A stretch of DNA of 58,220 bases from Clostridiales bacterium (GTDB taxonomy: Bacteria > Bacillota > Clostridia > Lachnospirales > Lachnospiraceae). The notes under the pieces were generated by a model, which was not told the DNA's origin, did not search any database, and worked only from the letters and a program-made list of their open reading frames with translations. A program made the position numbers and the translations under genes. The stretch spans positions 1-58,220 of the forward strand of contig JAQXPY010000042.1 in NCBI GenBank assembly GCA_029100885.1, given 5' to 3'. Of this stretch, positions 1 to 17,675 are shown piece by piece. Numbering within the stretch: position 1 is the stretch's first letter; every line of letters starts with the position of its first letter.

Positions 1-165
1 AATGGCCTCATTGACACACGCAGGTGCAGGAACATTAGGATTACCGAGGCTGAAGTCATAGACATTTTCAGCACCGATCTCAGCTTTTCTGCGGGCGCCG
101 TATTCGGAAAGCTCTCTGATGCAGCTGCGGCTTAAGCCCCAACCAAGCGTTTTTTCTGGTAACAT
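1..165 (-). CDS. PLP-dependent aminotransferase (class I/II), N-terminal ~55 codons only; the gene runs off the left edge
   Basis: Reverse-strand ATG at 163-165 preceded by AGGAGGAT (rc of 171-178). Translation is MLPEKTLGWGLSRSCIRELSEYGARRKAEIGAENVYDFSLGNPNVPAPACVNEAI; the DFSLGNPN segment is typical of Asp/Ala-type aminotransferase N-termini. It is absent from the ORF track because it is open-ended. Confidence 0.7.
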   Translation of the reverse strand, partial: MLPEKTLGWGLSRSCIRELSEYGARRKAEIGAENVYDFSLGNPNVPAPACVNEAI

Positions 166-466
166 ATCTTATCCTCCTGAAAGTGTAGATTATTTGTACA
201 ATCTGTTGTTGATCGATCATCTGTCCGGCACCCGGCAAAGTGATTTTTCTTCTGAATATCGTGCCGTGTGCTCCTGATGTGTCATGGTGTGTGCTGTTAC
301 TATTCAGCACCCGGTAAAATACATTCGCAATTCACTCGCCTTTGGCTCGCTTCTTGCTCATGTTTTTGCCGTCTGCTCCTCAGACCCGTCACGATCTCAT
401 ACGGAAAAATATGCAGGCACATTTTTCCTACTGATATCGCGGCATGTGCTGAATAGTTACCGTTTT

Positions 467-2755
467 TTACAACTTGCTTCTGATGACGGTGCCGTTGGCA
501 GTCTTAGGAAGCTCTGATCTGAACTCTACTATACGCGGATACCTGTAAGCAGCGGTATGTGTTTTGACATAGTTCTGTATCTCTTCCTTAAGATCGTCGG
601 ATGGCTCCTTATCGTCTATAAGAACCACGCTGGCCTTGACGACCTGTCCTCTTATTTCGTCAGGAACAGCCGATACTCCGCATTCCTTTACATAAGGAAG
701 CTCCATGATGACGCTTTCCACCTCATAAGGACCTATACGGTAGCCCGAGCATTTGATAACATCATCGACTCTTCCGATCGGCCAGAAATAGCCGTCCTCA
801 TCCTTCCATGCCAGATCGCCTGTATGGAAATAACCGCCTGCAAATACCTTTGCGTTCGAATCCGGGGAGTTGTAGTAGCCTGTCATAAGTCCGATAGGCA
901 TGCCCTGACTTATGGAAATGCATATCTCGCCGGGTTCCCCGGTCTCTACCTCGTTAAGTTCGGTGTCAAGAAGACGGATATCGAAGATAGGATTGACCTT
1001 TCCTACAGCTCCGGCCTTAGGCGTCATGCCGATAAAGGAGCCGAGCAGAAGTGAGGTCTCCGTAAGTCCGTATCCTGTCATGATGGAAAGACCGGTCTCT
1101 TTCCTGAAGTGGTTGAATACTTCGGCGCTGAGGTTATCCCCGACGGAGCACACATGCTTAAGGGAAGACAGATCGAAGCTCTTCAGATCCTCATGTAGAA
1201 GAGCCCTGAACATGGATCCTGGAGCGGTAAACGAGGCGATCCTGTATCTTTCGATAAGCTTCAGAAGGTCAGAAGGCTTAATCTTTCTGAAATCATAGGC
1301 AAATACTCCCGATTCGCAGATCCACGGACCAAAGAGCTTTCCCCAAAGAGCCTTTGCCCAGGCGGTGTCGGAAAGACAGAAGCTTAACGTATCGGGCTCA
1401 TTGCAGTTCCAGTAATAGCCTGTAACAAAATGCGCCAGCGGATATCTGCAGTCAAAGCAGGTCGCCTTTGGCATGCCGTCCGAGTAGGACTGGAATATCA
1501 TCATCAGTGGATCACTGCCGCAGGCGGAATCTCTTGATCTCAAAAACCTTGCCGACATCCTGTCATATTCGGTATCGAAATCATACCAGCCATCAGGAGC
1601 GGAGCCTGCAGCTATCTTAATAAGAGACCTGCCGTATCTGGAAGCCGCACTGTCAATCTGTCCGGTTATAAAGCTGTCGCCGCAGGCTATGACTGCGCTT
1701 ATGCCTGCCGCTCTGAACCTGTACAGGTAATCCTTCTCAAGCAGCTGGTCGATAACGGGAACGGCTACCGCACCGATCTTCTGGAGAGCTGTAATTATGA
1801 TCCAGAAATGATAGGAACGACGCAGCACAAGCATGACACGATCTCCCTTTTTGATACCGAGGGAGGCAAGGTAATTGGCGGCACGTCCGCTCTTTTTCTT
1901 TATATCCTTAAATGTAAAACGGCGTTCCGTAAGGCCTTCGTCCAGATGAACGAGTGCTGTCTTATCAGGCTCTGTATCAGCGATCCTGTCAACGATATCA
2001 AAGGCAAAGTTGAACCTGTCGCTATTTTTGAAAAAAATACTTTCAAGTACGCCGCTGCCGGATTCCTTAGGCGATACAAAGTCCTCCCATACACGGCGGC
2101 GTCCGGTCTCCCTTGTAGCTGTAAGGACAGGAACCTGGGTACGCGCCTTTGAGAAGTCAATATCCTCCGGTGAGACCATAGCAGCTAAAAAAACACAGTC
2201 CTTACCGCCGGAGGCTATCATGCCGTGCGGAGCCGAGGAATCGTAAAATATCGTGTCCCCGGCATTCAGAACCTCTGTATGCTCGCCGATGCGGATCTTC
2301 AGACTGCCGCTGAGAATATAGTCAAATTCCTGACCTATGTGAGAGGAGACCTCTATAGGGAGGTTTTCCTTTTCCGGATCGTATTCAACAGTCACAATGA
2401 GCGGTTCCACCATTCTGTTTCGGAATTTTGAGGCAAGATTATGAACTGTCATGCCGTTGGCTCTGCTGACAGTACCGGTATCTCCTCCGCGGTTTACCGA
2501 GTATGAGCTCAGATTAGGCACAGCTCCTTCGATAAGCTCATTGATATCTACATTAAAGACCTGGGAGCAGGTATAGAGAAAAGCATAGTTCAGCTCATGC
2601 TCACCGTTTTCAAAGGCAGAATAGTCTTCCGCGGAAATACTTAAGATACCTGCCATATATTCCTTTGTAAAATTATGAATATGCCGCAGATCTCGGATAC
2701 GCCTTCTGATATCAGATGAACTGAGATCAGGCATGGTTGTTTCAGACATGATCAT
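467..2755 (-). CDS. XRE-HTH + cupin domain fused to an AMP-forming acyl-CoA synthetase-like domain (762 aa); the catalytic motifs are degenerate, so it may be a non-catalytic sensor or regulator paralog
   Basis: The N-terminus has an HTH_3-like segment (IRDLRHIHNFTKEYMAGILSISAEDYSAFENGE) and a cupin (GQEFDYILSGSLKIRIGEHTEVLNAGDTIFYDSSAPHGM). The C-terminal ~520 aa align along their length with the neighbouring paralog and carry adenylate-forming motifs (GYGLTET, YFHTGDLAWKDEDGYFW, GRVDDVIKCSGYRIGPYEVE). The A3 loop reads FQSYSDGMPKA and A10 reads PKTANGTVIR (Lys replaced by Thr). Confidence 0.85.
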   Translation of the reverse strand: MIMSETTMPDLSSSDIRRRIRDLRHIHNFTKEYMAGILSISAEDYSAFENGEHELNYAFLYTCSQVFNVDINELIEGAVPNLSSYSVNRGGDTGTVSRANGMTVHNLASKFRNRMVEPLIVTVEYDPEKENLPIEVSSHIGQEFDYILSGSLKIRIGEHTEVLNAGDTIFYDSSAPHGMIASGGKDCVFLAAMVSPEDIDFSKARTQVPVLTATRETGRRRVWEDFVSPKESGSGVLESIFFKNSDRFNFAFDIVDRIADTEPDKTALVHLDEGLTERRFTFKDIKKKSGRAANYLASLGIKKGDRVMLVLRRSYHFWIIITALQKIGAVAVPVIDQLLEKDYLYRFRAAGISAVIACGDSFITGQIDSAASRYGRSLIKIAAGSAPDGWYDFDTEYDRMSARFLRSRDSACGSDPLMMIFQSYSDGMPKATCFDCRYPLAHFVTGYYWNCNEPDTLSFCLSDTAWAKALWGKLFGPWICESGVFAYDFRKIKPSDLLKLIERYRIASFTAPGSMFRALLHEDLKSFDLSSLKHVCSVGDNLSAEVFNHFRKETGLSIMTGYGLTETSLLLGSFIGMTPKAGAVGKVNPIFDIRLLDTELNEVETGEPGEICISISQGMPIGLMTGYYNSPDSNAKVFAGGYFHTGDLAWKDEDGYFWPIGRVDDVIKCSGYRIGPYEVESVIMELPYVKECGVSAVPDEIRGQVVKASVVLIDDKEPSDDLKEEIQNYVKTHTAAYRYPRIVEFRSELPKTANGTVIRSKL

Positions 2756-2825
2756 TTCCTCTCAATCTTTGTTTGCCGAGGCTGTCCCCCTGCAGGAAAC
2801 GTCCTTGGTATTATCTTATTTTATC

Positions 2826-2850
2826 ATATGTGGAGTTATATATGTGGAGT
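2826..2850. promoter_or_regulatory. Direct repeat ATATGTGGAGT x2 (2826-2836 and 2840-2850, 14-bp period) overlapping the putative promoter of the 467-2755 gene; candidate operator
   Basis: Two exact 11-mers read directly from the sequence. On the minus strand they lie just upstream of an extended -10 (TGaTAAAAT, rc of 2818-2826), covering the -35/spacer positions. Confidence 0.35.
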
Positions 2851-2940
2851 ATTTTTTCATTTATTCGTAAGAGGATCGGTGTTCAATGAGGGTGTGAATG
2901 ATCTTCGCCGGTAACCAGATCGGATCACCGAAACTCATAT

Positions 2941-2977
2941 AAAAACAGCCATCGGCCAATAAAGAGACTGATGGCTG
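2941..2977 (-). terminator. Rho-independent terminator downstream of the 3027-5336 gene
   Basis: Minus-strand hairpin CAGCCATC(16-nt loop)GATGGCTG followed by UUUUU (rc of the A-run at 2941-2945), about 50 nt after the stop codon. Confidence 0.6.
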
Positions 2978-3026
2978 CGGATGCTTATTATAGCGTAAAT
3001 ATTAATGATAATTATCCTTATTGGAT

Positions 3027-5336
3027 TTAAAGCTTGTTTCTCTGGATCTTTCCGCTGACTGTCTTAGGCAGTGAATCGCGGAATACTACTATACGAGGAT
3101 ACTTGTAAGGAGCAGTCTTTTCCTTAACATAGTTCTGGATATCCTTCTTGAGCTCTTCTGTAGGCTCCGTACCCTTTACAAGCACGATGCTTGCCTTAAC
3201 GACCTGACCTCTCGTCTCATCCGGCTCGGCGGATACTCCGCATTCTAAAACATAAGGAAGCTCCATGATGACAGACTCGATCTCGAAAGGTCCGATACGA
3301 TAGCCGGAGGACTTGATGATGTCGTCGGTCCTGCCCACATACCAGAAGTATCCGTCCTCATCTCTCCATGCCAGATCGCCTGTGTGATACCAGCCGTCGT
3401 GCATAGCTCTCTTTGTGGTCTCGGGATCATTGTAATAGCCCTTGAAGAGTCCGCAAGGAGTACCCTTGGAATAGTTGATGACGATCTCGCCCGGCTCTCC
3501 TGTACCGACTGACTCCCCGTCGGAATTTACGAGGTCGATCTGATACATAGGACTCGGCTTGCCCATTGAGCCTGGCTTTGGAGTCATTCCTACGAAGTTT
3601 CCGACTGTCAGCGTTGTTTCTGTCTGTCCGAAGCCCTCCATGATGCTCAAGCCCGTAGCTTCCTTAAATCTGTCAAATACTTCAGGGTTCATCGCCTCAC
3701 CGGCTATGCTGGCATGCTTGATGCTTGACAGATCGTATTTGCTGAGATCCTCCTTGATAAAGAAACGGTACATCGTAGGCGGAGCACAGAAGGTAGTGAT
3801 ATTGTATTTCGCGAACAGAGGAAGCAGATCGTCGGAATGGAATCTGTCGAAATCGTATACAAAGGTTGCTGCTCCGTTCATCCACTGACCGTAGATCTTC
3901 CCCCAGAGAGCCTTGCCCCAGCCTGTATCCGATATGGTGAAGTGGATGCCGTCAGGATCCACATCGTGCCAGTAACGGGCTGTTGCAAAATGACCGAGAG
4001 GATATTTGCAGCTGTGCTCCACAGCCTTCGGATACCCGGAGGTACCGGAGGAAAAGAGCATGAGCATGGTATCTTCTCCGCAGATGCATTCGCCTGTGCG
4101 GCGGTAACGGCTTGAATACATATCATATTCGTCATCGAAATCATGCCAGCCCTCTGCTTCGGCTCCCTCACAGAGACCGCCTGTCATGATCTTGAGCTCC
4201 ACGGTAGGGCACTGAGGCAGAGCCTTTTCGACCTCCTCATGAACGGTGCCGAAGGAGGTGCAGACGACCGCCCTGACAGATGCCGCATTGAAGCGGTATT
4301 CCAGATCCTTTTTAAGCAGCTGGTCTGTGGCAGGTATGGCAACGGCTCCCAGCTTGTGCAGGCCTACGAGAATAGGCCAGAATTCCCAGTTTCTGCGAAG
4401 AAGCAGAAGCACCTTATCACCCTTTCTGATACCCTGTGCCTTGAAATAATTGGCTGCTCTGGCGCTCATTTTCTTCATATCGTTGAAGGTGAAGCGGCGC
4501 TCGTTCTTTTCACGGTCAAGGTGGAGCATGCACAGACGGTCAGGCTGCTCTTCGGCGACAGCGTCCACAACATCAAAGGCAAAATTAAAGTTTTCTGTAT
4601 TCTTAAATACTAGCTTAGTCGGATAGCCTGCCTCATTCTCCTCTGTCTGTATAAAATCTTCGACGAAATTAGGCACAGGCTTGCGGTACACGGCAGGAGC
4701 TGTCTGAACAGAAGCACTGTTTCTCAGGTGACCGTCCTTCCATACTACCTCCGAACCCTCTTCAGGGAGAATGACTGAAAGGAATGTGACATCCTCTCCG
4801 TTGAGAGCTATCATTCCGTGAGGATTTGAAGAGCTGTAAAAGGCACTGTCACCCACATTAAGAATCTCTTCGTGTTCACCGATCTTAAGCTTCATAGAGC
4901 CCTTGAGTACTATATCGAATTCCTGACCGGAATGGGTGACCTGATGGATAGGAGCAGTTTGCTCCTCCTCGGAGTATTTGTATGTTACCCAATACGGATC
5001 TGCCTTACGGTTTTTGAAAAGAGGTGCAATGCTCTTGATCTCAATACCCGGCTCTACAGCTGTGATCTGTCCTTCACCGGCTCTTGTGATCTCATAGCCT
5101 GTAAGCCGCGGGCTGGTTCCCTCAAGCAGCTCCATCATTTCAACGCCGAACACATTGGCGCATTTGTGAATGAAGGAGAACGGAAGGTCTGCCTCACCCT
5201 GTTCGTAGAGCTCGTAATCCGAAAGGCTGAAGGCGGTAAGAGCAGCCATCTCCTCGGTGGAATATCCGCTGTCGAGACGGAGCTGTCTGATTCTCTCGGC
5301 TACCTCATGAAGCATTTTTCCTGTTGTTTCTGTCAT
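3027..5336 (-). CDS. XRE-HTH + cupin domain fused to a medium-chain (ACSM/Macs-like) AMP-forming acyl-CoA synthetase, 769 aa, catalytic motifs intact
   Basis: HTH (RIRQLRLDSGYSTEEMAALTAFSLSDYELYEQGE) and cupin (GQEFDIVLKGSMKLKIGEHEEILNVGDSAFYSSSNPHGM) are present. Intact adenylation motifs: A3 LFSSGTSGYPKAV, A5 GFGQTET, A7 YHTGDLA, A8 GRTDDIIKSSGYRIGPFEIE, A10 PKTVSGKIQR. RBS GGAGGAAAAG lies upstream of the ATG at 5336. Confidence 0.9.
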   Translation of the reverse strand: MTETTGKMLHEVAERIRQLRLDSGYSTEEMAALTAFSLSDYELYEQGEADLPFSFIHKCANVFGVEMMELLEGTSPRLTGYEITRAGEGQITAVEPGIEIKSIAPLFKNRKADPYWVTYKYSEEEQTAPIHQVTHSGQEFDIVLKGSMKLKIGEHEEILNVGDSAFYSSSNPHGMIALNGEDVTFLSVILPEEGSEVVWKDGHLRNSASVQTAPAVYRKPVPNFVEDFIQTEENEAGYPTKLVFKNTENFNFAFDVVDAVAEEQPDRLCMLHLDREKNERRFTFNDMKKMSARAANYFKAQGIRKGDKVLLLLRRNWEFWPILVGLHKLGAVAIPATDQLLKKDLEYRFNAASVRAVVCTSFGTVHEEVEKALPQCPTVELKIMTGGLCEGAEAEGWHDFDDEYDMYSSRYRRTGECICGEDTMLMLFSSGTSGYPKAVEHSCKYPLGHFATARYWHDVDPDGIHFTISDTGWGKALWGKIYGQWMNGAATFVYDFDRFHSDDLLPLFAKYNITTFCAPPTMYRFFIKEDLSKYDLSSIKHASIAGEAMNPEVFDRFKEATGLSIMEGFGQTETTLTVGNFVGMTPKPGSMGKPSPMYQIDLVNSDGESVGTGEPGEIVINYSKGTPCGLFKGYYNDPETTKRAMHDGWYHTGDLAWRDEDGYFWYVGRTDDIIKSSGYRIGPFEIESVIMELPYVLECGVSAEPDETRGQVVKASIVLVKGTEPTEELKKDIQNYVKEKTAPYKYPRIVVFRDSLPKTVSGKIQRNKL

Positions 5337-5488
5337 TTCTTTTCCTCCGTATCAGTAAAGTATTGATGCAGGCATATAGAATGATTGAATGCAGTGACGG
5401 CGTCGGGCACTTACGTTTTATAAAAATGCCGAGCCCGGGCCGTATCTACGGGATAGAGCTGACCGGAATAGGAAACCGGATATAAAAC

Positions 5489-5757
5489 AAAAAAGCCCGT
5501 CCCAAGAAAAAACCTTGAGACGAGCTGCTTATATGCATACCCGCGGTACCACTCAAATTGCGCTTTGACACGCCACTCATCAGACTCCTGCAAGTCCTGA
5601 GCACTAACGTAGCTTACACGTGAGACCCTACCCGGTATTCGCTCGGATCTCCGACTCGGAAGTGATGGATCATTGGGATGCCCTTCGCCCTGCTTCCAGC
5701 CAGTGACAGGTTCTCTGTTCTCCGGACGCTTCCCGATCGTCTTCGTCAATGTCTTTT
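5489..5757 (-). promoter_or_regulatory. T-box riboswitch leader (candidate specifier AUC = Ile) with intrinsic terminator, upstream of the 3027-5336 gene
   Basis: Elements on the minus strand: the Stem I base GGAAG...CUUCC; an AGAGA bulge followed by the distal loop UCACUGGCUGGAAG; an F-box-like ACGUUAG; and the T-box core AAUUUGAGUGGUACCGCGG (rc of 5541-5560). The terminator is AGCUCGUCUCAAGG-UUUUUU-CUUGGGACGGGCU (rc of 5494-5526) followed by a U-run. The candidate specifier is rc of 5664-5666 followed by A. Confidence 0.85.
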
Positions 5758-5762
5758 GACAC

Positions 5763-5791
5763 ATTAAAGCACAAGAGCATTGATATGTCAA
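5763..5791 (-). promoter_or_regulatory. Sigma-70-type promoter for the T-box leader (TTGACA-17 nt-TTTAAT)
   Basis: rc of 5786-5791 is TTGACA and rc of 5763-5768 is TTTAAT, with an exact 17-nt spacer. It sits immediately upstream of the first T-box helix. Confidence 0.6.
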
Positions 5792-5816
5792 TAAAAAATT
5801 TCGCAGGTGCGGGCTG

Positions 5817-5843
5817 GCGTTTTTGAAAGCGTTTTTGAAAGCG
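5817..5843. repeat. Tandem 12-mer GCGTTTTTGAAA x2 (+GCG) in the divergent intergenic region
   Basis: Read directly: gcgtttttgaaa gcgtttttgaaa gcg. It lies between the T-box promoter (minus strand) and the putative moxR promoter (plus strand). Confidence 0.6.
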
Positions 5844-5846
5844 GGT

Positions 5847-5875
5847 TTGCCATCAGGTCTGAATGGGGATATAAT
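5847..5875 (+). promoter_or_regulatory. Putative promoter of the MoxR operon (TTGCCA-17 nt-TATAAT)
   Basis: TTGCCA at 5847-5852 and TATAAT at 5870-5875 with a 17-nt spacer. It would give a ~120-nt leader containing 14-mer direct repeats (5895-5908 and 5939-5952). Confidence 0.35.
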
Positions 5876-5999
5876 CGATTTATCAATTGAGAAAATAATC
5901 AGGCTGCAAACGGAGATATATACAGTCTGCAAGGAGATATAATCAGGCTGCATACCGGGATTATGATAGTGGATATATTCAGAACTGACGGAGGTAATA

Positions 6000-6968
6000 A
6001 TGGAGGCTGAAAGGATAAGAGAGCTGTCAGACAGGCTGCTTTTTGAAACTGAAAAGATAATAGTCGGAAAATCCGACAGAATAAGGCTCATGATAATGGC
6101 AGTACTTGCCGGAGGGCATGTGCTTATAGACGATCTTCCGGGGTTGGGCAAAACAACGTTGATCAAGGCACTTTCGGCAGCGCTTGGCTGTGAGTTCAGG
6201 AGAGTGCAGTTTGTGCCGGATCTGATGCCTTCGGATATTTCAGGAATGAGGATATTCAATCAGAGGACAGGAGCCTTCGAGCTGTCGGAGGGTCCTGTCA
6301 TGACAAATATTCTGCTGGCAGACGAGATCAACAGAGCTATTCCGAGGACTCAGTCGGCTCTGCTGGAGGCAATGGAGGAGAGACAGGTCACCATTGACGG
6401 AGACTCCATCAGACTGCCGCAGCCGTTCATCGTGCTGGCTACTCAGAACCCGGTGGAGTCGGAAACTACATTTCCGCTTCCTGCAGCCCAGATGGACAGA
6501 TTTCTTATCAGGCTGTCTATAGGCTATCCTTCTCATGAGGAGGAGCTGCGTATGCTTGGAGTGCTCGGAGACAGGATACCATTTGAAAGCGTTGAAGCAG
6601 TAACGAATGCCGGTGAGCTTTCAGTTCTTATAGGGGAGCTTTCGGAGGTGTCGGTGTCAGAAAAGGTTGCGGACTATATCGTAAGAATAACCGAGGCTAC
6701 CAGACATAGCAACGAGCTTAGATCCGGCGCCAGCCCGAGAGCATCAAGGGCATTATATAAGGCTTCTAAGGTGTGGGCTGCTATGAAGGGCAGGGATTAT
6801 GTTACACCTGATGATGTGAGAGAGCTGGCGCATCCTGTGCTGGAGCATAGACTGATCCTGTCATCCCAGGCCGCATTTTCCGGAAGAACCGCAGGAGATG
6901 TACTGGAAGAGATACTGAAGGGTACAGTTCCTCCGCCTGATGCGGACGGTATTCTCGGTATTGGATAG
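6000..6968 (+). CDS. MoxR-family AAA+ ATPase
   Basis: Walker A DDLPGLGKTT, Walker B LLADEINRA, sensor region VLATQNP and the C-terminal ASPRAS motif are typical of MoxR/AAA_3. RBS GGAGG lies before the ATG. Confidence 0.9.
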   Translation: MEAERIRELSDRLLFETEKIIVGKSDRIRLMIMAVLAGGHVLIDDLPGLGKTTLIKALSAALGCEFRRVQFVPDLMPSDISGMRIFNQRTGAFELSEGPVMTNILLADEINRAIPRTQSALLEAMEERQVTIDGDSIRLPQPFIVLATQNPVESETTFPLPAAQMDRFLIRLSIGYPSHEEELRMLGVLGDRIPFESVEAVTNAGELSVLIGELSEVSVSEKVADYIVRITEATRHSNELRSGASPRASRALYKASKVWAAMKGRDYVTPDDVRELAHPVLEHRLILSSQAAFSGRTAGDVLEEILKGTVPPPDADGILGIG

Positions 6969-6994
6969 TCACAGCAGAATTAAACAGGGCAGGA

Positions 6995-8347
6995 ATGCTT
7001 TTGAAAACAGGAACAAAAGAAATTATGAAACGTGGCAGGAACCCTTTTGCAAACATAATCAAAAGGAATTATGATACACGAATCAGACTTGTATCTATGA
7101 GATCTTCCTTCCTGACAGGAAAGGCTGTGGCGGTCTCGCTGCTCGCAGGCGGCGCGGCCTCTTTTGCGATGCACAGAACACAGCCTGGAATCGTCCTGAT
7201 TTTTTTCGGAGCTGCGGCGCTTTTGTCCCGGAAAATGGCTCTTGACTCACTGAGGGATGTTGAATTTGAGGCAGAGGGAAGCAGATATGCAATGTTTCCG
7301 GACTCGGACTTCGAACTGATACTTAAGATAAATAATCATAAGGCTCTGCCGCTCATATGGCTGGAGGCGGCTTTCCCTGTAGAGGAGGATTCCCCTGTTC
7401 GTCCGGTAAACGAAGAGGATATATTTAGATCCGACGGACTCACCAGGGCGGATGAGGATCTGCCGGACTGTCCGATGCTGAGAATAAAGACAGCCTTTAT
7501 TATGCCTTATCAGGAATTGAAGATAAAGGTTCCGATGAAGGCAGTAAGGAGAGGAATCTTCAGCTTTGATATGATCAGGCTGTATTCGGGAGACGGTCTC
7601 GGTCTTGCGCAGGCCGGTATGACAGCGGCAGCCCCTGGCAGAAGCTTTGCCGTATTTCCGAGACCGGCTGATGTGAGCACAGAGCTGTTTACCAGAAATC
7701 AATGGATGAGCAAGGGCGGCAGCAGAGGCTGTACGGAGGATCCGACTCTTATAAGAGGCACAAGAGAATATCAGACGGGCGATCAGTGGAAGCGCATAAA
7801 CTGGAGGATGACTGCAAGGGGACTGCCTCTGACGGTCAATCTCCCGGAAATGATACTGCCTGCGTCGTCCCATTTTATTGTAGACGGTGAGAGCTTTGGA
7901 GGGACTGAGCCGCTAAGAGAGGAATTTGAACAGATGCTGGGCATTCTGTCCGGAATCATCCTCAGACTGGATGAAATGGGGCTCTCCTGTGGACTTACTC
8001 TGCCGGATTCTCTGCGTGGCAGAGGACAGACTCTGGATGCGGGAACAGATCCTGTGGGGCTTTTGTATGCATTAGCCGAATATGAGTTGAAAATGCCGGT
8101 ATATGATGAAAATAACGAATATATTCCGTCGGCATCGTTTTTTGACAAAAGGAGACTTATGAGGAGCATATCCTCGTCAGGTGCGGTTTATTATTTTACG
8201 GAAAATGCTTCCGCTGCCGATAAAGAAATCATAAGGATGGCAGAAGGAAGGATAATGCTGATAACATCAAGACAGCCGTCGGAAAAGGAGATCAGGTCCT
8301 CCGGCTGCAGAATAGTACCGTTTTCCGCGATACTCAGAAAGAAGTGA
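6995..8347 (+). CDS. DUF58 (vWA-like) protein, the usual MoxR partner; exact start uncertain (alternatives 7025, 7097)
   Basis: The REYQTGDQWKRINWRMTAR segment is the DUF58 signature. An N-terminal TM segment is present and the gene immediately follows moxR. Confidence 0.8.
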   Translation: MLLKTGTKEIMKRGRNPFANIIKRNYDTRIRLVSMRSSFLTGKAVAVSLLAGGAASFAMHRTQPGIVLIFFGAAALLSRKMALDSLRDVEFEAEGSRYAMFPDSDFELILKINNHKALPLIWLEAAFPVEEDSPVRPVNEEDIFRSDGLTRADEDLPDCPMLRIKTAFIMPYQELKIKVPMKAVRRGIFSFDMIRLYSGDGLGLAQAGMTAAAPGRSFAVFPRPADVSTELFTRNQWMSKGGSRGCTEDPTLIRGTREYQTGDQWKRINWRMTARGLPLTVNLPEMILPASSHFIVDGESFGGTEPLREEFEQMLGILSGIILRLDEMGLSCGLTLPDSLRGRGQTLDAGTDPVGLLYALAEYELKMPVYDENNEYIPSASFFDKRRLMRSISSSGAVYYFTENASAADKEIIRMAEGRIMLITSRQPSEKEIRSSGCRIVPFSAILRKK

Positions 8348-8435
8348 CAGTACACTGACATTGCGGTAATACGGAGTAATTGGAGAAGAAGTCGTCGGCA
8401 ATGCAGAGATATGGCAAAAACATGGAGGATGGAAA

Positions 8436-9770
8436 TTGGGTTCGGACAGAACTGAAAACATAAAGACGGCAGCTGCACTGTACTGCGATGTGGTGCTGTA
8501 TTTTTCCTTTTTGGTATTGAGAGATACCTTTGCAGGCGCGGGAGGTCATTCCGGAAGGGCGCTTGCGGTCTGGCTGCTTTCGGCAATGCTGGTGTATGGA
8601 GTGAACTGCCGGCTGCTGAAGAAGGAAAGGGAGCTTGGGAGCCTGATCGTTGCAAATCTTGCTATCGGAGTTCCTGCTGCCGCTGCGGTATTTTATATGA
8701 TGGGACCCTATGCTTCACTCTGGCAGATGGCATTTACGGCAGTCGGCATCATATTTATACATTGCCGCATCGTGAACCGTTTTTTTGATCGCGTTACTGT
8801 GGACGGATGTATCAGGGCCTTTGAAGTGTCAGTCTGTCTTATTACAGGCTATGTGCTTTTTAAAAGCCTCTATGAAATAGATGCTTCTACAGGTCCGTTT
8901 CTGATGTCTTCGGTGATCGCTTCGGTGGCATCGGTGATCGCTGCAAGACTGGAAAATGCTGAAAACCTCGGATCCGGACAGGGCAGGGCCGGACTCCTCG
9001 TTGTTTTTTCGCTGATTGCCGCGCTGGCAGCCGCCTGTACTCTCTTCGGTGTATATTTTTCCGATACTGCGGGGGAAATCATAAGAGGGTCTGCAGCAAC
9101 GGCAGCGGGAATAGCAGCCACGGTGATGAGGCTTCTCGGAAAGCTCGTAACGGCACTTCTGATGCTGCTTCCGGAGGGGGAATACGGAGAGTATATTCAG
9201 GAGCCTCAGCAGAGCATTGGCCTGACGGCTGAGGAGCTGCCGGAGCTAAGCTATGATCCCGGTCCTGCAGCGGTGCTGCTTGCAGCTGCGTTAGTGTCAG
9301 CGGCGCTTATCTGCGCCTTTCTGAAGCTCAGGCACCTGAAGCTGTCAGTACACAAAAAAAGACCTGTGCGTAAAGCTGCAAAGGCAGAATCGACAGGTTT
9401 TGCCGGAATGATCCGGCATATGCTTGAAGCTGTCCGCAGATCATTAAGGAGATTGATCGGAAGGCTTAGTATCAGAAATACTCCTGCGGGATCCGCTTTG
9501 TCCGCAGAGCGGATACTTAAGTATACACGGTATTCAAAGTCGGAGGGAGAAACATATCCTGCCTATATGCGCAGACTTGCGGACGAGCTGAAGGCTGAGG
9601 ACGTAAATCAGGCATCAATGCTGCTTGTGAGACTGGCCGACGAATTTGACAGGCAGTTTTTTGCAGGTGCCGCTCCGGTCACCTTGAGCCGGACCGAAAC
9701 AGCCGTCATAAAACGTGCGGTCAGACAGCTTGCGATTGCTGCACGAGCTGACAGCAGCGAAACAGAATGA
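8436..9770 (+). CDS. Polytopic membrane protein with a DUF4129-like C-terminal tail; third gene of the MoxR operon (TTG start)
   Basis: There are multiple hydrophobic helices, a late TM (AAVLLAAALVSAALICAF) followed by a basic stretch, and a C-terminal helical region. GGAGGA at 8424-8429 lies 6 nt before the TTG. I saw no transglutaminase Cys-His-Asp core. Confidence 0.55.
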   Translation: MGSDRTENIKTAAALYCDVVLYFSFLVLRDTFAGAGGHSGRALAVWLLSAMLVYGVNCRLLKKERELGSLIVANLAIGVPAAAAVFYMMGPYASLWQMAFTAVGIIFIHCRIVNRFFDRVTVDGCIRAFEVSVCLITGYVLFKSLYEIDASTGPFLMSSVIASVASVIAARLENAENLGSGQGRAGLLVVFSLIAALAAACTLFGVYFSDTAGEIIRGSAATAAGIAATVMRLLGKLVTALLMLLPEGEYGEYIQEPQQSIGLTAEELPELSYDPGPAAVLLAAALVSAALICAFLKLRHLKLSVHKKRPVRKAAKAESTGFAGMIRHMLEAVRRSLRRLIGRLSIRNTPAGSALSAERILKYTRYSKSEGETYPAYMRRLADELKAEDVNQASMLLVRLADEFDRQFFAGAAPVTLSRTETAVIKRAVRQLAIAARADSSETE

Positions 9771-9853
9771 CCGGAACAGAACAGAATGAGCTGAACCGTA
9801 TAGAATAAAATAATCCGAACGGCGGGGCTCACAGCTTATTATGAAAGACTCCT

Positions 9854-11059
9854 TCAGGGTATGATAACGGGAGAGCGCTCATATTCATTGGATGACAGTG
9901 CAGCCTGATAATACAGATTACTGAATCGGATCTCCTGTTTTAAAAGCTCTCTGTGGTCAGCGGTCTTGGTTATAACGGGCACTGAGGCGGCAGCCTTCAG
10001 CAGCGATAGAAGTCCGGCGGAGGAACGACGAAAACCAAGTATTTTCAGATAAGAGATCATGCCTTCGCTTATGGCGGAGGCTTTTTCCTTATCGGTGATT
10101 CCTATGGCAGCAGCCAGCAGGGCTCTTGAAATACGGGTATATGTATACTGCTTTGTCTTTGTATCCAGGACACGTTCGGTGAAGCTCAGAGAAAGGTCTG
10201 CTCTGTTGACAAGCCGTCGGGCAATGTCCGGAGAGATTCCCGCGTATTGCTCTAACGGCAGACCGAGATAGGCTGCGTCCAGCAGAACCTTTGAGAGGAC
10301 TAATGAAAAGGCGTCAGGATATACGGGTGATGCAGCACGGTACAGCCTTTCCGCTTCATGAGGAATAAAACTGCCGAGGCTATCTGCAGCAGAAGACTTC
10401 AGGATTTTTCTCAGGTATGTGGCAGAACAGTAGCGTGAGTCTGCAGAATACTCCATGGAATAATTATCACCGACTCTTGCTATGGCAATGGGCGTTATTC
10501 TGTGTTCCGGATCATATTTTTTCAGAGCTCTCAGATATTCTGCCGCAAGGATGTTGTTGGCTGAAGAGATCCCGGGGATCTCTCTTCCGCCGAAAAATGC
10601 GGCGGCACGGGAAACAGCCTTAGGGTATGTATACCCGGATCTTAACAGCTCTCTTATATATTCAGAGGCTTCCGGCGACTCGTCATCCAGAAGCTCAGCA
10701 TAGCCTTCGAGCTCTCTGAGAGTAATTCCCTCCTCGGTTCCGAAGCATAGGAAGTCTGCTATGCCTGATAAAAGAGCTGTTTTTACTCCGGCCTGCGCAA
10801 ATTCACCGGCAGGAGCAGTGGAAAACAGTGTAGGAAGCTCTATTACAAGATCTGCATAGCCATCGGCGCCGTCTCCCTTAAGAGCGGCAGCTGTCCGGAT
10901 ATATTTGTCAAATACAGCAGGCTCTCCCCGCTGTACGTAATTGCCGCTCATTATGGCAATGATATGATCCGCGCCCAGCTCTTTTCTTATCTTACCGAGC
11001 AGATAGGCGTGGCCGTTATGAAAAGGATTGAATTCACATATTACAGCAGCGATCCTCAA
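9854..11059 (-). CDS. tmcAL: tRNA(Met) cytidine acetate ligase (TmcAL, YlbM/UPF0348 nucleotidyltransferase family)
   Basis: The N-terminus (M)RIAAVICEFNPFHNGHAYLLGKIR carries the HIGH-type nucleotidyltransferase motif characteristic of TmcAL. TTG start with GAGGAGG RBS. Confidence 0.8.
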   Translation of the reverse strand: MRIAAVICEFNPFHNGHAYLLGKIRKELGADHIIAIMSGNYVQRGEPAVFDKYIRTAAALKGDGADGYADLVIELPTLFSTAPAGEFAQAGVKTALLSGIADFLCFGTEEGITLRELEGYAELLDDESPEASEYIRELLRSGYTYPKAVSRAAAFFGGREIPGISSANNILAAEYLRALKKYDPEHRITPIAIARVGDNYSMEYSADSRYCSATYLRKILKSSAADSLGSFIPHEAERLYRAASPVYPDAFSLVLSKVLLDAAYLGLPLEQYAGISPDIARRLVNRADLSLSFTERVLDTKTKQYTYTRISRALLAAAIGITDKEKASAISEGMISYLKILGFRRSSAGLLSLLKAAASVPVITKTADHRELLKQEIRFSNLYYQAALSSNEYERSPVIIP

Positions 11060-11276
11060 AGCTTCTGAAACCTCCTCACGGACATATGATCATTATGTGA
11101 TCCGAAGTGTTAATACAGTCTGAAGGTTTATGACTTTTTAACGGTTCGGAACATTTCGGGACATTAATTTCATTTTCAGTTATACTATTAAAATATATTA
11201 TTAGAATATACTATATCAGTTATCAAATATCAAAAAGAAAGGAGCGGATCAGAGACGCACCGACGATCCGCAATAT

Positions 11277-12926
11277 ATGGATATGGATTCAAAACTATAT
11301 TATATTCTTGCGTATTTTATCCTCTATTCTTTTCTTGGCTGGTGTCTGGAGGTGGCGTTCAATGCGGTGACTTCGGGAAGGATCGTAAACAGGGGCTTTC
11401 TGAACGGACCTCTGTGCCCGATATACGGCTTCGGAATGACGGCTGTCATTCTCATACTTACACCGGTCAAGGACAATCTGCTGCTGCTGTTTTTTGGAGG
11501 AGCCATGTTTGCAACGCTTATCGAGCTTGCCGGAGGCTTCATACTGCTGAAGCTTTTTTCAATGAGATGGTGGGATTATACGAACGAGCCCTTTAATCTC
11601 GGAGGCTACATCTGCCTCAGGTTTTCCGCAGCATGGGGTATATGTATACTATTTGCTATGAAGATAATACATCCTGTGGTTGAGCTGAATGTTTATCTGC
11701 TGGACGGATTTATCGGACACTTCCTTCTGATCGCCGCATATCTGGTGTTTGCGGCTGATCTTGCGGCAACTGTTATGACCATAACCAAGCTCAATAAAAG
11801 ACTTTCGAGGCTTAATGAGTTCTCTCATGATATACGTTCCTTCAGTGATGAGCTGACGGATAAAATAGGAAAAACTGCATTTGATGCCAATATCAGGTAT
11901 CAGAGGGGAAGAGTTCAGGCGGCACTTGGCATGGCGGAGCTTGAGGAGGAGCTGGACGAATTAAGAGACAGGATCGATACAGACAGAGCTCGCAAAAGGT
12001 CTGAGCTGCGCTTAAGAACAGAAGAGATCAGGGACAGGGTAGAGGAATCCTTTGAAAGCATTTTCGAAGAAACAGCGGAAAGGATCAGAAAACACAAGCA
12101 CTTCGGATACGGAAGACTCTTAAGAGCATTTCCGGATGCGAAGCATGCGCAGTACAATGAAGAGCTGAGGAGGCTGATAATGGCAATTAATGTTCAGTCC
12201 GGGGAGACAGAATATGTAAAGTCTGCAGAGAAAAAAAACACACAAGACAGGGAAGCGGATGATGTACAGGGAGAAGAGACAGATGTACGATCTGCTCCCG
12301 AAGAGGCCCAGAAATCGTCAAAAACAGGAACCGTAATATGCTTCGGGGATTCCAATACATACGGCTATGATCCGTATACAGGCAGTCGGTATCCGTCATC
12401 AGTCAGATGGACAGATATCATCGAAAGAGAGACAGGTATAAAAACGGTAAATGCAGGTCTTAACGGCAGACAGATACCCCATACTCCGTATGAGCTATCC
12501 GAGCTTATTTCCTATTTAGACAAGGCGGCAGAGGGAGCCTATGATGCTCCGGTGATGCTGTGGATAATGCTGGGTACAAATGATATTCAGATGAACTATG
12601 GTTACACAGCCGAAAAGGCGGTCGAAAGGATGAGAAGCCTTCTTACGGAGCTTATGAAACACAGAGCAGTCAGAGAACAGACAGTGAAGCTATGCGTTAT
12701 CAGCCCTGCAGGTGTAAGAGAGGGCTCCTGGTCAGACAGCCGGTGCGTGACAGAGATCGACAGGCTCCGGGGGCTTCTGCAGATGCTGTGCGGAGAGCTG
12801 GGGCTTTGCTTTGCGGATCTCGGAGGAGAACCGATAGAGCTTGGTCCCGACGGAGATCATTTTACTCCTGCCGGGCATCGCAGAGCGGCGGATTTTATGA
12901 TGCAGACGCTTGTGTTACAAAATTAA
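11277..12926 (+). CDS. Fusion protein: N-terminal membrane domain of the 'putative ABC-transporter type IV' (CmpB-like) family, a coiled-coil/acidic linker, and a C-terminal SGNH/GDSL hydrolase
   Basis: The N-terminus YSFLGWCLEVAFNAV...GFLNGPLCPIYGFG is typical of that membrane family. The C-terminal domain has all four SGNH blocks: ICFGDSNTYG (I), NAGLNGRQ (II), LGTNDI (III), DGDHFTPAGH (V). Confidence 0.75.
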   Translation: MDMDSKLYYILAYFILYSFLGWCLEVAFNAVTSGRIVNRGFLNGPLCPIYGFGMTAVILILTPVKDNLLLLFFGGAMFATLIELAGGFILLKLFSMRWWDYTNEPFNLGGYICLRFSAAWGICILFAMKIIHPVVELNVYLLDGFIGHFLLIAAYLVFAADLAATVMTITKLNKRLSRLNEFSHDIRSFSDELTDKIGKTAFDANIRYQRGRVQAALGMAELEEELDELRDRIDTDRARKRSELRLRTEEIRDRVEESFESIFEETAERIRKHKHFGYGRLLRAFPDAKHAQYNEELRRLIMAINVQSGETEYVKSAEKKNTQDREADDVQGEETDVRSAPEEAQKSSKTGTVICFGDSNTYGYDPYTGSRYPSSVRWTDIIERETGIKTVNAGLNGRQIPHTPYELSELISYLDKAAEGAYDAPVMLWIMLGTNDIQMNYGYTAEKAVERMRSLLTELMKHRAVREQTVKLCVISPAGVREGSWSDSRCVTEIDRLRGLLQMLCGELGLCFADLGGEPIELGPDGDHFTPAGHRRAADFMMQTLVLQN

Positions 12927-15253: not shown

Positions 15254-15997
15254 ATGAAGACGATATTTGAGCCTACAAAGGGAATGCTCCCTGTTGATAC
15301 AAGCTACTGCCCTGGATGCACTCACGGAATCGCTCACCGCATTATCATGGAGGTCCTTGAGGAGAGAGGAGATCTCGGCAAGACTATCGGAGTGGTTCCG
15401 ATCGGATGCTCCATCAATGCACATCATTTTATGAATATCGATATGTGCGAGTCTACCCACGGAAGAGCTCCGGCAATTGCTTCAGGTATCAGAAGAGTAC
15501 ATCCGGACAAGGTGATCTTCACCTATCAGGGTGACGGAGATCTGGCATCTATCGGTGCGGGAGAGATTATACATGCCGCCCACAGAGGCGAAAAGTTTAC
15601 CACCTTCTTTATCAATAACGGTATCTACGGCATGACCGGAGGACAGATGGCTCCGACCACCCTTATCGGACAGAAGGCTACCACCTGTGTTGACGGAAGA
15701 ACCGTAGAGCAGGCGGGCAAGCCTCTCAGAATGTGTGAGATCATTTCTCAGATAGACTGTGCTGTATTTGTAGAAAGGGTCATGCTCAACAACCCTGCAA
15801 ATGTCCGCAAGGCAAAGGAGGTTGTCCGCAAGGCTCTCGAGATCCAGGATGCCCGTCTCGGCTTTACCTTTGTCGAATTCCTGAGCTCCTGCCCAACCAA
15901 CTGGGGCCTGACTCCTGTGGATTCTCTGAAGTTCATTGAGAAGGACATGGCTGAGTATTATCCAGTTAAAAACTTTAAGACACCGGAGGGATTTTGA
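15254..15997 (+). CDS. 2-oxoacid:ferredoxin oxidoreductase beta subunit (TPP-binding)
   Basis: CPGCTHG cluster ligands near the N-terminus and the TPP motif GDGDLASIGAGE...NNGIYGMTGGQ. Confidence 0.9.
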   Translation: MKTIFEPTKGMLPVDTSYCPGCTHGIAHRIIMEVLEERGDLGKTIGVVPIGCSINAHHFMNIDMCESTHGRAPAIASGIRRVHPDKVIFTYQGDGDLASIGAGEIIHAAHRGEKFTTFFINNGIYGMTGGQMAPTTLIGQKATTCVDGRTVEQAGKPLRMCEIISQIDCAVFVERVMLNNPANVRKAKEVVRKALEIQDARLGFTFVEFLSSCPTNWGLTPVDSLKFIEKDMAEYYPVKNFKTPEGF

Positions 15998-16527: not shown

Positions 16528-16590
16528 TCTGCTGCAAACCTTATAAACATATTTTGCATATAATTGTTTTATTTTCTCAGGAGGAAAATT

Positions 16591-17430: not shown

Positions 17431-17675
17431 TATTAATATTTTGCCGGATTTTTTATTTGAAAACTGCGGCAGCGTGACTATATCCGGGGCTGGGCTTCAG
17501 TCCCGGATGTAGCTGCATAATAGTGCGAGCTCTGAAAGGTATTATTTCGAATGTCTGACCACATTTTTGATAGTCGCAAGCTGTTGTGTCTGTCAGAGCT
17601 GCTGCGAAAAAGCAACATCAAGTAACAGTTCCACAGAAACTGTTGCGGTTTTTAAGAAAAAGGGGATATAAAGAA

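What the first reader, a model, noticed from the sequence alone, without database searches (positions are those of the whole stretch)
467..2755. The downstream paralog has lost hallmark catalytic residues of adenylate-forming enzymes (P-loop and A10 lysine)
I compared the two paralogs motif by motif.
- A3 phosphate-binding loop: LFSSGTSGYPKAV in the 769-aa protein, but IFQSYSDGMPKAT in the 762-aa protein. The Gly and Thr/Ser residues of the (S/T)(S/G)G(S/T)(S/T)G consensus are replaced.
- A10 motif: PKTVSGKIQR becomes PKTANGTVIR. This replaces the invariant lysine needed for the adenylation half-reaction, which is also the usual acetylation site in Acs-type enzymes.
- DTGWGK becomes DTAWAK.
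- Motifs A5, A7 and A8 remain intact.

This pattern fits a pseudoenzyme that keeps the fold and possibly ligand binding but not adenylation. It could be a dedicated ligand-sensing transcription factor derived from the active, T-box-controlled copy.
Basis: seen in the sequence. Interest (0 to 1): 0.62.

Follow-up and report, generated by a model that had tools for sequence, protein, structure and literature searches.

The report
Conserved dead copy of acyl-CoA ligase
A pig-gut bacterium keeps, expresses and conserves a copy of a branched-chain acid-activating enzyme whose ATP-handling residues are destroyed, so it most likely now works as a non-catalytic sensor or partner rather than as an enzyme.

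Summary
The 762-aa protein (467-2755, minus strand) has the full HTH + cupin + AMP-binding architecture. Its A3 P-loop reads FQSYSDGMPK instead of F[ST]SG[ST][ST]GYPK. Its A10 lysine is Thr756, by alignment to Macs (3ETC) and ACSM2A.

This is not random decay:
- Five proteins from related bacteria share the same remodelled loop (QSYS..M) and 42 substitutions at otherwise near-invariant positions.
- Different lineages then lose further catalytic residues: A3 Lys, A7 Asp, A8 Lys, A10 Lys.
- All reading frames are intact. dN/dS is 0.09 for the one unsaturated ortholog pair, and strain SNPs are 11 synonymous to 1 non-synonymous.
- Four metatranscriptomes hold contigs of this gene but almost none of the adjacent T-box-controlled active copy. 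Four DNA runs cover both genes evenly.

The dead copy does not descend from its neighbour. It nests within valine-T-box enzymes (AU test p = 1.5e-8). The transcription-factor role is unproven: the fused HTH is strongly acidic and no conserved operator was found.

Best reading: a selected, expressed ANL pseudoenzyme, first gene of an operon with a PLP aminotransferase. Its non-catalytic role in branched-chain acid to amino acid salvage is inferred.

The parts
467..2755 (-). Degenerate paralog ('dn', W762): HTH-cupin-ANL protein of 762 aa. The likely true start is Met3 at 2749, judged from the spacing to the GAGAGGAA ribosome-binding site.
2525..2704 (-). HTH_19 domain (residues 18-77). Family invariants R19, R24, Y45, E49, F59 and G77 are kept. 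Net charge of the domain is -5.
2183..2350 (-). Cupin_2 domain (residues 136-191). The putative metal or ligand triad H139/E143/H177 is invariant in all 58 aligned family members.
872..1990 (-). AMP-binding N-terminal domain (residues 256-628). 28% of its near-invariant columns are changed.
1460..1498 (-). Degenerate A3 P-loop IFQSYSDGMPKAT. The QSYS..M form is shared by all five clade members.
1352..1369 (-). DTAWAK. G465A sits at a position that is invariant in active relatives.
491..724 (-). AMP-binding_C domain (residues 678-755).
479..508 (-). A10 motif PKTANGTVIR. Thr756 replaces the catalytic and acetylatable lysine.
2818..2850 (-). Own promoter of the dn gene. It has an extended -10 TGATAAAAT (2826-2818) and two 11-bp direct repeats ACTCCACATAT (2850-2840 and 2836-2826) over the -35 and spacer. 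An RNA contig reaches 2794.
2941..2978 (-). Terminator-like hairpin (GCAGCCATC...GATGGCTG followed by TTTTT) after the upstream gene. It separates the two transcription units.
   Evidence: read from sequence; expression pattern
3027..5336 (-). Catalytically intact paralog ('up', W769). It belongs to the Ile-T-box clade and is probably a 2-methylbutyrate-CoA ligase.
5513..5758 (-). T-box leader with an AUC (Ile) specifier. It controls only the upstream copy.
1..165 (-). 5' part of a class I/II PLP aminotransferase gene (PRK06836 type in the orthologous loci). It is co-transcribed with dn.
201..422 (-). Strain-specific 222-bp insertion carrying a dispersed repeat of about 130 nt (Clostridiales-1-like). 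Most strains have 22 nt here instead.

Best explanation
The 762-aa gene encodes a pseudoenzyme, maintained by selection and transcribed, of the branched short-chain acyl-CoA ligase family (Macs/MbcS-like ANL enzymes with an N-terminal HTH-cupin module).

Origin and decay (shown):
- It arose by duplication of a whole valine-type, probably isobutyrate-activating, tri-domain gene in one lineage of a pig-gut Clostridia genus.
- It came to lie between the isoleucine-type ligase and a PLP aminotransferase. It has no T-box and has its own sigma-70-type promoter.
- In the common ancestor of the clade the ATP-phosphate loop and about 40 other active-site-proximal invariant positions were replaced by a new conserved set (QSYS..M, F434, A441, N450, S458, A465, P477, T510, C669, R738).
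- Individual lineages then lost further catalytic residues: K430Q, D647T, K668E, R702C, K756T/V.

Inferred from established ANL biochemistry: it can no longer carry out the adenylation half-reaction.

Inferred function: it keeps the ANL fold, the cupin triad and the HTH scaffold, so it probably still binds a small ligand (a branched acid, acyl-CoA, adenine nucleotide or amino acid). It would act non-catalytically as a sensor or regulatory partner for the aminotransferase step of branched-chain acid to amino acid salvage. Whether the output is DNA binding or protein-protein contact is not resolved.
For: - Motif loss confirmed against solved enzymes.
- The degenerate P-loop is shared by five proteins only 56-61% identical to W762, which form a 100%-supported clade on a long stem of 0.88. 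They fall in a single 50%-identity cluster among 1.84 billion representatives.
- Synteny is conserved in three further contigs from at least two metagenome assemblies: T-box, intact copy, degenerate copy, aminotransferase.
- Upstream copies are 85-97% identical between these genomes. Downstream copies are 56-85% identical, with no stop or frameshift.
- dN/dS is 0.089 overall for L002 versus L003 (HTH 0.011, ACS-N 0.095). The active copy gives 0.038.
- Strain SNPs in dn are 11 synonymous to 1 non-synonymous, with no indels inside dn in four DNA runs.
- Real pseudogenes of this family, with stop codons, exist in other genomes.
- W762 changes 28% of ACS-N and 16% of ACS-C near-invariant columns, but only 6% in the HTH and 12% in the cupin. 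Active-member controls reach at most 6.5%, 4.6%, 12.5% and 11.8%.
- Contigs from four metatranscriptomes cover dn at depth 5-11 and join it to the aminotransferase. The up gene is near zero. Four DNA runs, one from the same sample as an RNA run, cover both genes evenly.
- The fold is retained: pLDDT 82, 3ETC TM 0.82.
- Nesting in the Val-T-box clade holds for both halves of the protein.
Against: - No activity was measured. ANL enzymes with impaired P-loops can keep residual activity.
- Two clade members (P0002, P0003) still have the A10 Lys. W762 still has the A5 Thr-Glu, the A7 Asp, the A8 motif and the A3 Lys, so nucleotide binding or a partial reaction is not excluded.
- dS is saturated for all ortholog pairs except one. 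That pair shows unequal dS for the two adjacent genes (0.42 versus 1.02).
- Logan contig depth is a poor measure of expression, and missing contigs do not prove missing RNA.
- The regulatory or sensor role is inference only. The HTH is acidic and no conserved operator was found.
- The clade is small: five full-length proteins plus one fragment.
Confidence: 0.72

Rival explanations
1. Dedicated ligand-sensing transcription factor. The dead ANL domain and cupin bind a branched acid or acyl-CoA. The XRE HTH binds an operator at the protein's own promoter and represses or activates the dn-aminotransferase operon. This is a special case of the best explanation.
For: - HTH_19 and Cupin_2 score above the Pfam cut-offs.
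- The HTH is the most conserved part in the closest ortholog pair: 97% identity, dN/dS 0.011.
- HTH invariants are kept.
- A perfect 11-bp direct repeat overlaps the -35 and spacer of the dn promoter and is unique in the genome.
- There is a precedent for an acyl-CoA ligase acting as a signal receptor and DNA-binding regulator: P. aeruginosa FadD1 (PMC12754631).
Against: - The fused HTH is strongly acidic in the whole family (median net charge -7, pI 4.4).
- The recognition helix carries E/D where XRE regulators carry S/T/Q/R. The stand-alone HTH-cupin in the same window has a canonical LTASYISQLERN helix.
- The 11-mer repeat does not appear in the promoter regions I read in L001 and L002. Two matches to a single 11-mer are within chance for the window: 29 of 100 shuffles reach that number.
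- Over longer distances the HTH diverges faster (46-53% identity) than the ANL domain (59-75%).
Confidence: 0.25
2. Non-catalytic partner subunit. The dead copy pairs with an active ligase, with the aminotransferase or with the oxoacid:ferredoxin oxidoreductase, through its cupin or ANL surfaces. It would modulate or scaffold the pathway, like the 'prozyme' type of dead paralog. This is also a special case of the best explanation.
For: - Gene order with an active paralog and an aminotransferase is conserved in every locus seen.
- dn and the aminotransferase are co-transcribed.
- The cupin triad and many surface-forming blocks are conserved.
- The acidic HTH argues against DNA binding.
- Earlier scan notes on active relatives reached a similar view of the HTH-cupin module. 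These are unchecked leads.
Against: - In four metatranscriptomes dn is present while the adjacent active ligase is almost absent, so an obligate complex with that ligase is unlikely.
- No interaction data exist and no co-folding could be run.
Confidence: 0.3
3. Still an enzyme. The remodelled, conserved active site (QSYS..M and the other fixed replacements) supports a different or partial reaction, for example acyl-CoA or acyl-AMP binding and turnover, or a reaction that does not need the P-loop and A10 Lys.
For: - The replacements are themselves conserved across the clade instead of drifting.
- W762 keeps the A5 Thr-Glu, A7 Asp and A8.
- Purifying selection acts on the ANL domain: dN/dS 0.03-0.10.
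- The gene sits in an operon with a metabolic enzyme.
Against: - Different clade members lose different remaining catalytic residues (A3 Lys, A7 Asp, A8 Lys, R702, A10 Lys). This is the pattern expected once catalysis is gone, not for a new conserved mechanism.
- As far as I know, no active ANL enzyme lacks the glycine-rich P-loop. This rests on my own knowledge, and two literature searches found nothing.
Confidence: 0.1
4. Decaying pseudogene with no function, not yet interrupted.
For: - dN is 3-6 times that of the neighbouring active copy.
- Catalytic residues are lost progressively.
- The taxonomic range is very narrow.
Against: - Reading frames are intact in five lineages that differ by about 40% in protein sequence.
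- dN/dS is 0.09.
- Strain SNPs are 11 synonymous to 1 non-synonymous, with no indels.
- The gene is transcribed.
- Genuine pseudogenes of the family do accumulate stops.
Confidence: 0.04

Closest known systems
Macs of Methanosarcina acetivorans (PDB 3ETC) and MbcS of Staphylococcus aureus (NCBIfam NF047394; PMC10026030, PMC11167679): AMP-forming ligases for branched short- and medium-chain acids
   Same: - Best sequence match (3ETC, E = 1.6e-143) and best structural match (TM 0.82).
- Same two-domain ANL fold.
- The A5 Thr-Glu and A7 motifs are recognisable; the hinge and A8 motif are recognisable with S669C and F677Y changes.
   Different: - The P-loop glycines and Thr/Ser are replaced and the A10 Lys is Thr.
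- 28% of ACS-N near-invariant columns are changed.
- It scores 339 bits against the 850-bit MbcS cut-off.
- It carries an N-terminal HTH-cupin module that those enzymes lack.
T-box-controlled HTH-cupin-acyl-CoA ligase fusions of gut Clostridia (the active family, including the neighbouring 769-aa protein and P0026 in L010)
   Same: - Identical tri-domain architecture and length.
- 47-55% identity.
- Tandem arrangement of two paralogs, also seen as Ile-type plus Val-type in L010.
   Different: - No T-box before the degenerate copy.
- Catalytic motifs are lost.
- It sits on a long stem branch and evolves 3-6 times faster at the protein level.
- It forms an operon with a PLP aminotransferase.
XRE-cupin transcription regulators (PuuR-type local repressors)
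   Same: HTH_19 followed by Cupin_2 at the N-terminus, with a conserved His/Glu/His cupin triad.
   Different: - Fused to a 520-aa ANL body.
- The HTH is highly acidic with an E/D-rich recognition helix.
- No conserved operator was found.
FadD1 of Pseudomonas aeruginosa, an acyl-CoA ligase that acts as the receptor of cis-2-decenoic acid and as a DNA-binding regulator (PMC12754631)
   Same: An ANL-family protein used as a ligand receptor with a regulatory output. It is a precedent for the transition from enzyme to sensor.
   Different: FadD1 remains catalytically active and is reported to bind DNA through a leucine-zipper motif. It has no HTH-cupin module and no motif loss.
Pseudoenzyme paralogs in general (for example the trypanosomatid AdoMetDC 'prozyme'; from my own knowledge)
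   Same: A dead duplicate of an active enzyme, retained under selection next to or together with active relatives.
   Different: No partner or activity effect has been shown here. My literature searches found no described ANL-superfamily pseudoenzyme.

Membership tests
ANL superfamily / AMP-forming acyl-CoA synthetase (Macs-MbcS-ACSM branch) | Two-domain ANL fold (PF00501 plus PF13193) | tested here: met
   PF00501 scores 179 bits and PF13193 scores 71 bits. The AF2 model matches 3ETC with TM 0.82.
ANL superfamily / AMP-forming acyl-CoA synthetase (Macs-MbcS-ACSM branch) | A3 phosphate-binding loop [ST][ST]G[ST][ST]GxPK | tested here: not met
   The loop reads QSYSDGMPK. G424Y and T422Q are at positions 100% and 96% conserved in 53 active relatives.
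ANL superfamily / AMP-forming acyl-CoA synthetase (Macs-MbcS-ACSM branch) | A10 catalytic lysine (Lys609 of S. enterica Acs) | tested here: not met
   Thr756 aligns with the Lys of 3ETC and ACSM2A. The position is Val in P0006 and P0011 and Lys in P0002 and P0003.
ANL superfamily / AMP-forming acyl-CoA synthetase (Macs-MbcS-ACSM branch) | A5 Thr-Glu, A7 Asp, A8 Arg-x-Asp-Asp...Lys-x-x-Gly | tested here: met
   W762 has GYGLTET, HTGD and GRVDDVIKCSGYRIGP. Flanking invariant residues are changed, and the orthologs P0006 and P0011 lose the A7 Asp and the A8 Lys.
ANL superfamily / AMP-forming acyl-CoA synthetase (Macs-MbcS-ACSM branch) | Score above the NCBIfam equivalog cut-off (MbcS, 850 bits) | tested here: not met
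   W762 scores 339 bits. The intact neighbour also stays below the cut-off at 433 bits.
ANL superfamily / AMP-forming acyl-CoA synthetase (Macs-MbcS-ACSM branch) | Acyl-adenylate and acyl-CoA forming activity | not testable with these tools
   This needs ATP-PPi exchange and CoA-ligase assays on the purified protein.
Pseudoenzyme (selected catalytically dead paralog) | Clear homology to active enzymes with loss of essential catalytic residues, shared by orthologs | tested here: met
Pseudoenzyme (selected catalytically dead paralog) | Purifying selection and intact frames across species and strains | tested here: met
   dN/dS is 0.089. Strain SNPs are 11 synonymous to 1 non-synonymous, with no indels. 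All five full-length orthologs have intact frames.
Pseudoenzyme (selected catalytically dead paralog) | Expression | tested here: met
   Contigs of 1.2-2.3 kb at 99% identity or more are present in RNA runs X2, X5 and X8, and shorter contigs of 0.3-0.6 kb in X15. The neighbouring gene is almost absent in all four, and DNA controls are even. This rests on contigs, not raw reads.
Pseudoenzyme (selected catalytically dead paralog) | Demonstrated absence of the ancestral activity | not testable with these tools
   Biochemical assay required.
XRE-cupin transcription regulators | XRE-type HTH followed by a cupin domain | tested here: met
   HTH_19 scores 39.4 bits (cut-off 30.2). Cupin_2 scores 41.1 bits (cut-off 27.2).
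XRE-cupin transcription regulators | DNA-binding competence and a cognate operator | tested here: inconclusive
   The HTH is acidic (net charge -5; family median -7). The 11-bp direct repeat at 2826-2850 is unique in the genome but does not appear in the promoter regions of L001 and L002 that I read.
T-box-regulated genes | T-box leader upstream of the gene | tested here: not met
   The only T-box in 1-12000 lies at 5513-5758, before the upstream copy. None precedes the degenerate copy in L001-L003. A terminator-like hairpin and a separate promoter lie between the two genes.

The most novel reading that the evidence does not exclude
The clade captures an enzyme-to-receptor transition in progress. 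A branched-chain acyl-CoA ligase lost catalysis but kept its acid, acyl-CoA or nucleotide pocket and its HTH-cupin head. It would now serve as the sensor that sets expression or activity of the aminotransferase converting salvaged branched 2-oxoacids into amino acids. Because the HTH-cupin head is retained under selection without a working ligase behind it, the head would have a function of its own. That would make the unexplained HTH-cupin module of thousands of gut-bacterial ligases directly testable.
Probability: 0.3. Interest if true: 0.7.

Novelty: new variant of a known kind. Interest (0 to 1): 0.5.

Why it matters
HTH-cupin-ligase fusions are abundant in gut and rumen Clostridia (one search found 7,881 significant hits among 8,000 candidates). 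They appear to feed branched short-chain fatty acids into valine, isoleucine and leucine synthesis. The role of their regulator-like head is unknown.

A natural variant in which the ligase chemistry is dead, but the whole protein is still conserved and expressed, separates the non-catalytic function from catalysis. Whatever W762 still does (bind a ligand, bind DNA, bind a partner) is a candidate function of the head and body that does not depend on adenylation.

I found no described pseudoenzyme of the ANL superfamily in two literature searches. The biological scope is narrow: a few species of one pig-gut genus. All functional statements beyond loss of motifs, selection and transcription are inferences.

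Tried and rejected
1. Origin from the neighbouring copy is rejected by trees and AU tests on the full length and on the N-terminal module. No gene-conversion tract links the two genes: maximum 77% nucleotide identity in 30-codon windows, longest identical run 23 nt.
2. Decaying pseudogene is rejected.
3. T-box control of dn: no T-box or remnant in 2756-3026 at E <= 0.1.
4. Operator search: the 11-mer repeat is unique in the genome but does not appear in the L001 and L002 promoter regions I read. No conserved inverted repeat was recognised, so this lead is left open.
5. Wider distribution:
   - 150 genera of the same family gave no dn-type copy; all hits were 48% identity or less.
   - 33 species of the genus gave one more, G156.
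   - The 50%-identity library shows a single cluster.
   - Fragments P0156 and P0216 are active-type; P0269 is a dn-type N-terminal fragment at 78% identity.
6. Literature searches for ANL pseudoenzymes or characterised HTH-cupin-ligase fusions returned nothing relevant except the FadD1 precedent.
7. The AlphaFold model confirmed the fold only.
8. dN/dS for all pairs except L002/L003 is unusable because dS is saturated.
Full report
**Observation**

The window carries two tandem genes on the minus strand, 3027-5336 (769 aa, 'up') and 467-2755 (762 aa, 'dn'). Both combine HTH_19, Cupin_2, AMP-binding and AMP-binding_C, and they are 47% identical.
- In dn the A3 loop is IFQSYSDGMPKAT, against LFSSGTSGYPKAV in up.
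- In dn the A10 motif is PKTANGTVIR, against PKTVSGKIQR in up.
- HMMER alignments to the closest solved enzymes, Macs of M. acetivorans (3ETC, E = 1.6e-143) and human ACSM2A, put Thr756 exactly on their A10 lysine.

Two details need correction.
- DTGWAK is the normal form in active relatives, so only G465A counts as a loss.
- A5 and A8 keep their key residues in W762 but carry changes at flanking invariant positions.

**Is it more than chance or drift in one sequence?**

A search of 5.8 billion proteins found thousands of tri-domain relatives with canonical motifs. Only four other proteins (P0002, P0003, P0006, P0011) share the degenerate loop QSYS[DY][GD]M.

In an alignment with 53 active relatives, 278 columns are at least 94% conserved.

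| Region | W762 changes | Active members left out in turn: mean | max |
|---|---|---|---|
| ACS-N | 28% | 1.9% | 6.5% |
| ACS-C | 16% | 0.8% | 4.6% |
| HTH | 6% | 2.1% | 12.5% |
| cupin | 12% | 1.5% | 11.8% |

- Forty-two columns are changed in all five clade members, often to the same new residue. Examples are T422Q, G424Y, Y428M, H434F, G441A, H450N, H458S, G465A, Q477P, C510T, S669C and K738R.
- On top of that, lineages lose different remaining catalytic residues: K430Q in P0002/P0003; D647T, K668E, R702C and K756V in P0006/P0011; K756T in W762.
- This pattern fits an ancestral remodelling of the active site, followed by free drift of residues that matter only for catalysis.

**Selection and integrity**

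Three other contigs show the same gene order: T-box, intact copy, degenerate copy, aminotransferase of 393 aa.
- Between genomes the intact copies are 85-97% identical. The degenerate copies are only 56-85% identical, but every frame is open.
- For the one pair with unsaturated dS (L002/L003), dN/dS is 0.089 for dn and 0.038 for up.
- Within dn the HTH is the most constrained part (97% identity, dN/dS 0.011) and ACS-N the least (81% identity, dN/dS 0.095).
- Over longer distances the HTH diverges more than the ANL body.
- Among strains in four metagenomes, the listed SNPs are 11 synonymous to 1 non-synonymous in dn and 26 to 1 in up. There are no indels inside dn.
- Genuine pseudogenes of the family, with 2-4 stops, exist in other genera.

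**Expression**

Public runs place the organism in pig gut.
- Four metatranscriptome runs hold contigs of up to 2.3 kb, at 99% identity or more, covering dn (513-2794) at depth 5-11.
- One of these contigs joins dn to the aminotransferase.
- The up gene is almost uncovered in the same runs. One run has a 203-nt contig on the T-box leader alone.
- Four DNA runs, one from the same sample as an RNA run, cover both genes evenly.
- So dn is transcribed from its own promoter. The extended -10 TGATAAAAT lies at 2826-2818, and a terminator-like hairpin at 2941-2978 follows up. dn is co-transcribed with the aminotransferase and is independent of the T-box.
- Caveat: these are assembled contigs, so this shows presence and not quantity.

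**Origin**

A maximum-likelihood tree of 53 proteins gives these results.
- The five degenerate proteins form one clade (support 100) on a long stem (0.88).
- That clade sits inside a 16-member clade (support 99) whose active members are preceded by T-boxes with GUC or GUA (Val) at the specifier position: P0026 in L010, L041 and L050.
- The neighbour W769 belongs to a separate clade with AUC (Ile) T-boxes.

Further tests agree.
- Forcing dn and the adjacent up copies into one clade is rejected: AU p = 1.5e-8 for the full length, and p = 1.2e-5 for the HTH-cupin part alone.
- There is no gene-conversion tract between the two genes.
- L010 shows the likely ancestral layout: an Ile-type and a Val-type active gene in tandem, each with its own T-box, next to a 2-oxoacid:ferredoxin oxidoreductase.
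- Species G156 has all three types: Ile-type, degenerate, and a separate Val-type gene with a T-box.
- The window's own genome lacks an active Val-type gene (genome 93% complete). It does carry a VOR-panB-HTH/cupin-panE-CoA-transferase-ilvE cluster at 14177-22225.
- The clade is confined to this genus, as far as 33 congeneric species, 150 other genera and the 50%-identity library show.

**Mechanism**

Shown:
- loss of the P-loop in 5 of 5 members and of the A10 Lys in 3 of 5;
- a retained fold (AF2 pLDDT 82; 3ETC TM 0.82);
- retained cupin H139/E143/H177 and HTH invariants;
- purifying selection;
- transcription together with a PLP aminotransferase of the PRK06836 type.

Inferred from established ANL biochemistry: adenylation is abolished or crippled. 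The Lys609Ala form of Acs and P-loop mutants lose the first half-reaction. This is my own knowledge; PDB 2P2J and 1PG3 appear among the hits.

Inferred: the protein works non-catalytically as a ligand-binding sensor or partner in branched-acid to amino-acid salvage.

The transcription-factor version is weakened by several points.
- The HTH is strongly acidic across the family: median net charge -7, with a recognition helix S-x-E-[ED]-Y. The stand-alone HTH-cupin in the same window has a canonical helix.
- No operator is conserved between species.
- Earlier scan notes on active relatives independently doubted DNA binding. I treat these as leads only.

An obligate complex with the neighbouring active ligase is unlikely, because dn is expressed when that gene is off.

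**Comparison and novelty**

The protein works like a pseudoenzyme paralog. It is a structural member of the ANL superfamily but fails two defining catalytic features. It has the domain layout of XRE-cupin regulators, but DNA binding is untested. P. aeruginosa FadD1 is a precedent for a ligase used as a receptor and regulator, though that protein remains active (PMC12754631). Literature searches found no described ANL pseudoenzyme and no study of the HTH-cupin-ligase fusions. I rate it a new variant of a known kind. It is of moderate interest, mainly as a natural separation-of-function allele for a large uncharacterised enzyme family.

Noticed in passing
window 201-422 (element core about 295-430): The long spacer between dn and the aminotransferase is a strain-specific 222-bp insertion. 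All four DNA runs laid and two of the four RNA runs (X2, X5) show 22 nt (TTCATAGTGTGTGCTGTAACTA) here instead. The insert carries a repeat of about 130 nt, with at least 40 copies at 75-90% identity across this 1.96-Mb genome. It matches Rfam Clostridiales-1 weakly (29 bits). The family may therefore be a dispersed repeat or mobile element.
   Followed up: partly
L053 3780-3928 (genome G159, contig C2): A Clostridiales-1 RNA match (34.8 bits, E = 6.5e-4) sits directly upstream of another HTH-cupin-ligase gene in a congeneric species, where relatives have a T-box.
   Followed up: no
window 5543-5745: One metatranscriptome (X2) has a 203-nt contig covering only the T-box leader, and almost nothing on the downstream 769-aa gene. 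This is what a terminated leader transcript would look like in the OFF state.
   Followed up: no
L034 (G126:C178:1055-3277) and L032 (G133:C55:4308-6047): Two other genera carry true pseudogenes of the HTH-cupin-ligase family, with 2 and 4 in-frame stops. They are a useful contrast to the intact degenerate clade.
   Followed up: no
L002 versus L003, both genes: The two adjacent genes have unequal synonymous divergence between the same two contigs: dS 0.42 for the intact copies and 1.02 for the degenerate copies. Possible causes are recombination or gene conversion of the intact copy, or strong codon bias. Not explained.
   Followed up: no
window 5816-5827: There is a 12-bp deletion polymorphism among strains inside the tandem 12-mer GCGTTTTTGAAA in the divergent region between the T-box promoter and moxR. 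Two of four DNA runs lack one copy.
   Followed up: no
window 14177-22225: This stretch holds a cluster of 2-oxoacid:ferredoxin oxidoreductase alpha/beta/gamma, panB, a stand-alone HTH-cupin regulator with a canonical recognition helix, panE, a 508-aa CoA-transferase and a class IV aminotransferase (ilvE-like). It offers a ligase-independent route for branched-acid activation, which may explain why this genome has no active Val-type ligase.
   Followed up: partly
window 2735-2755: The start codon is ambiguous. The longest ORF starts at 2755 (MIMSETT...). The GAGAGGAA ribosome-binding site is best spaced for Met3 at 2749. The database protein P0001 starts at Met8, giving 755 aa.
   Followed up: no
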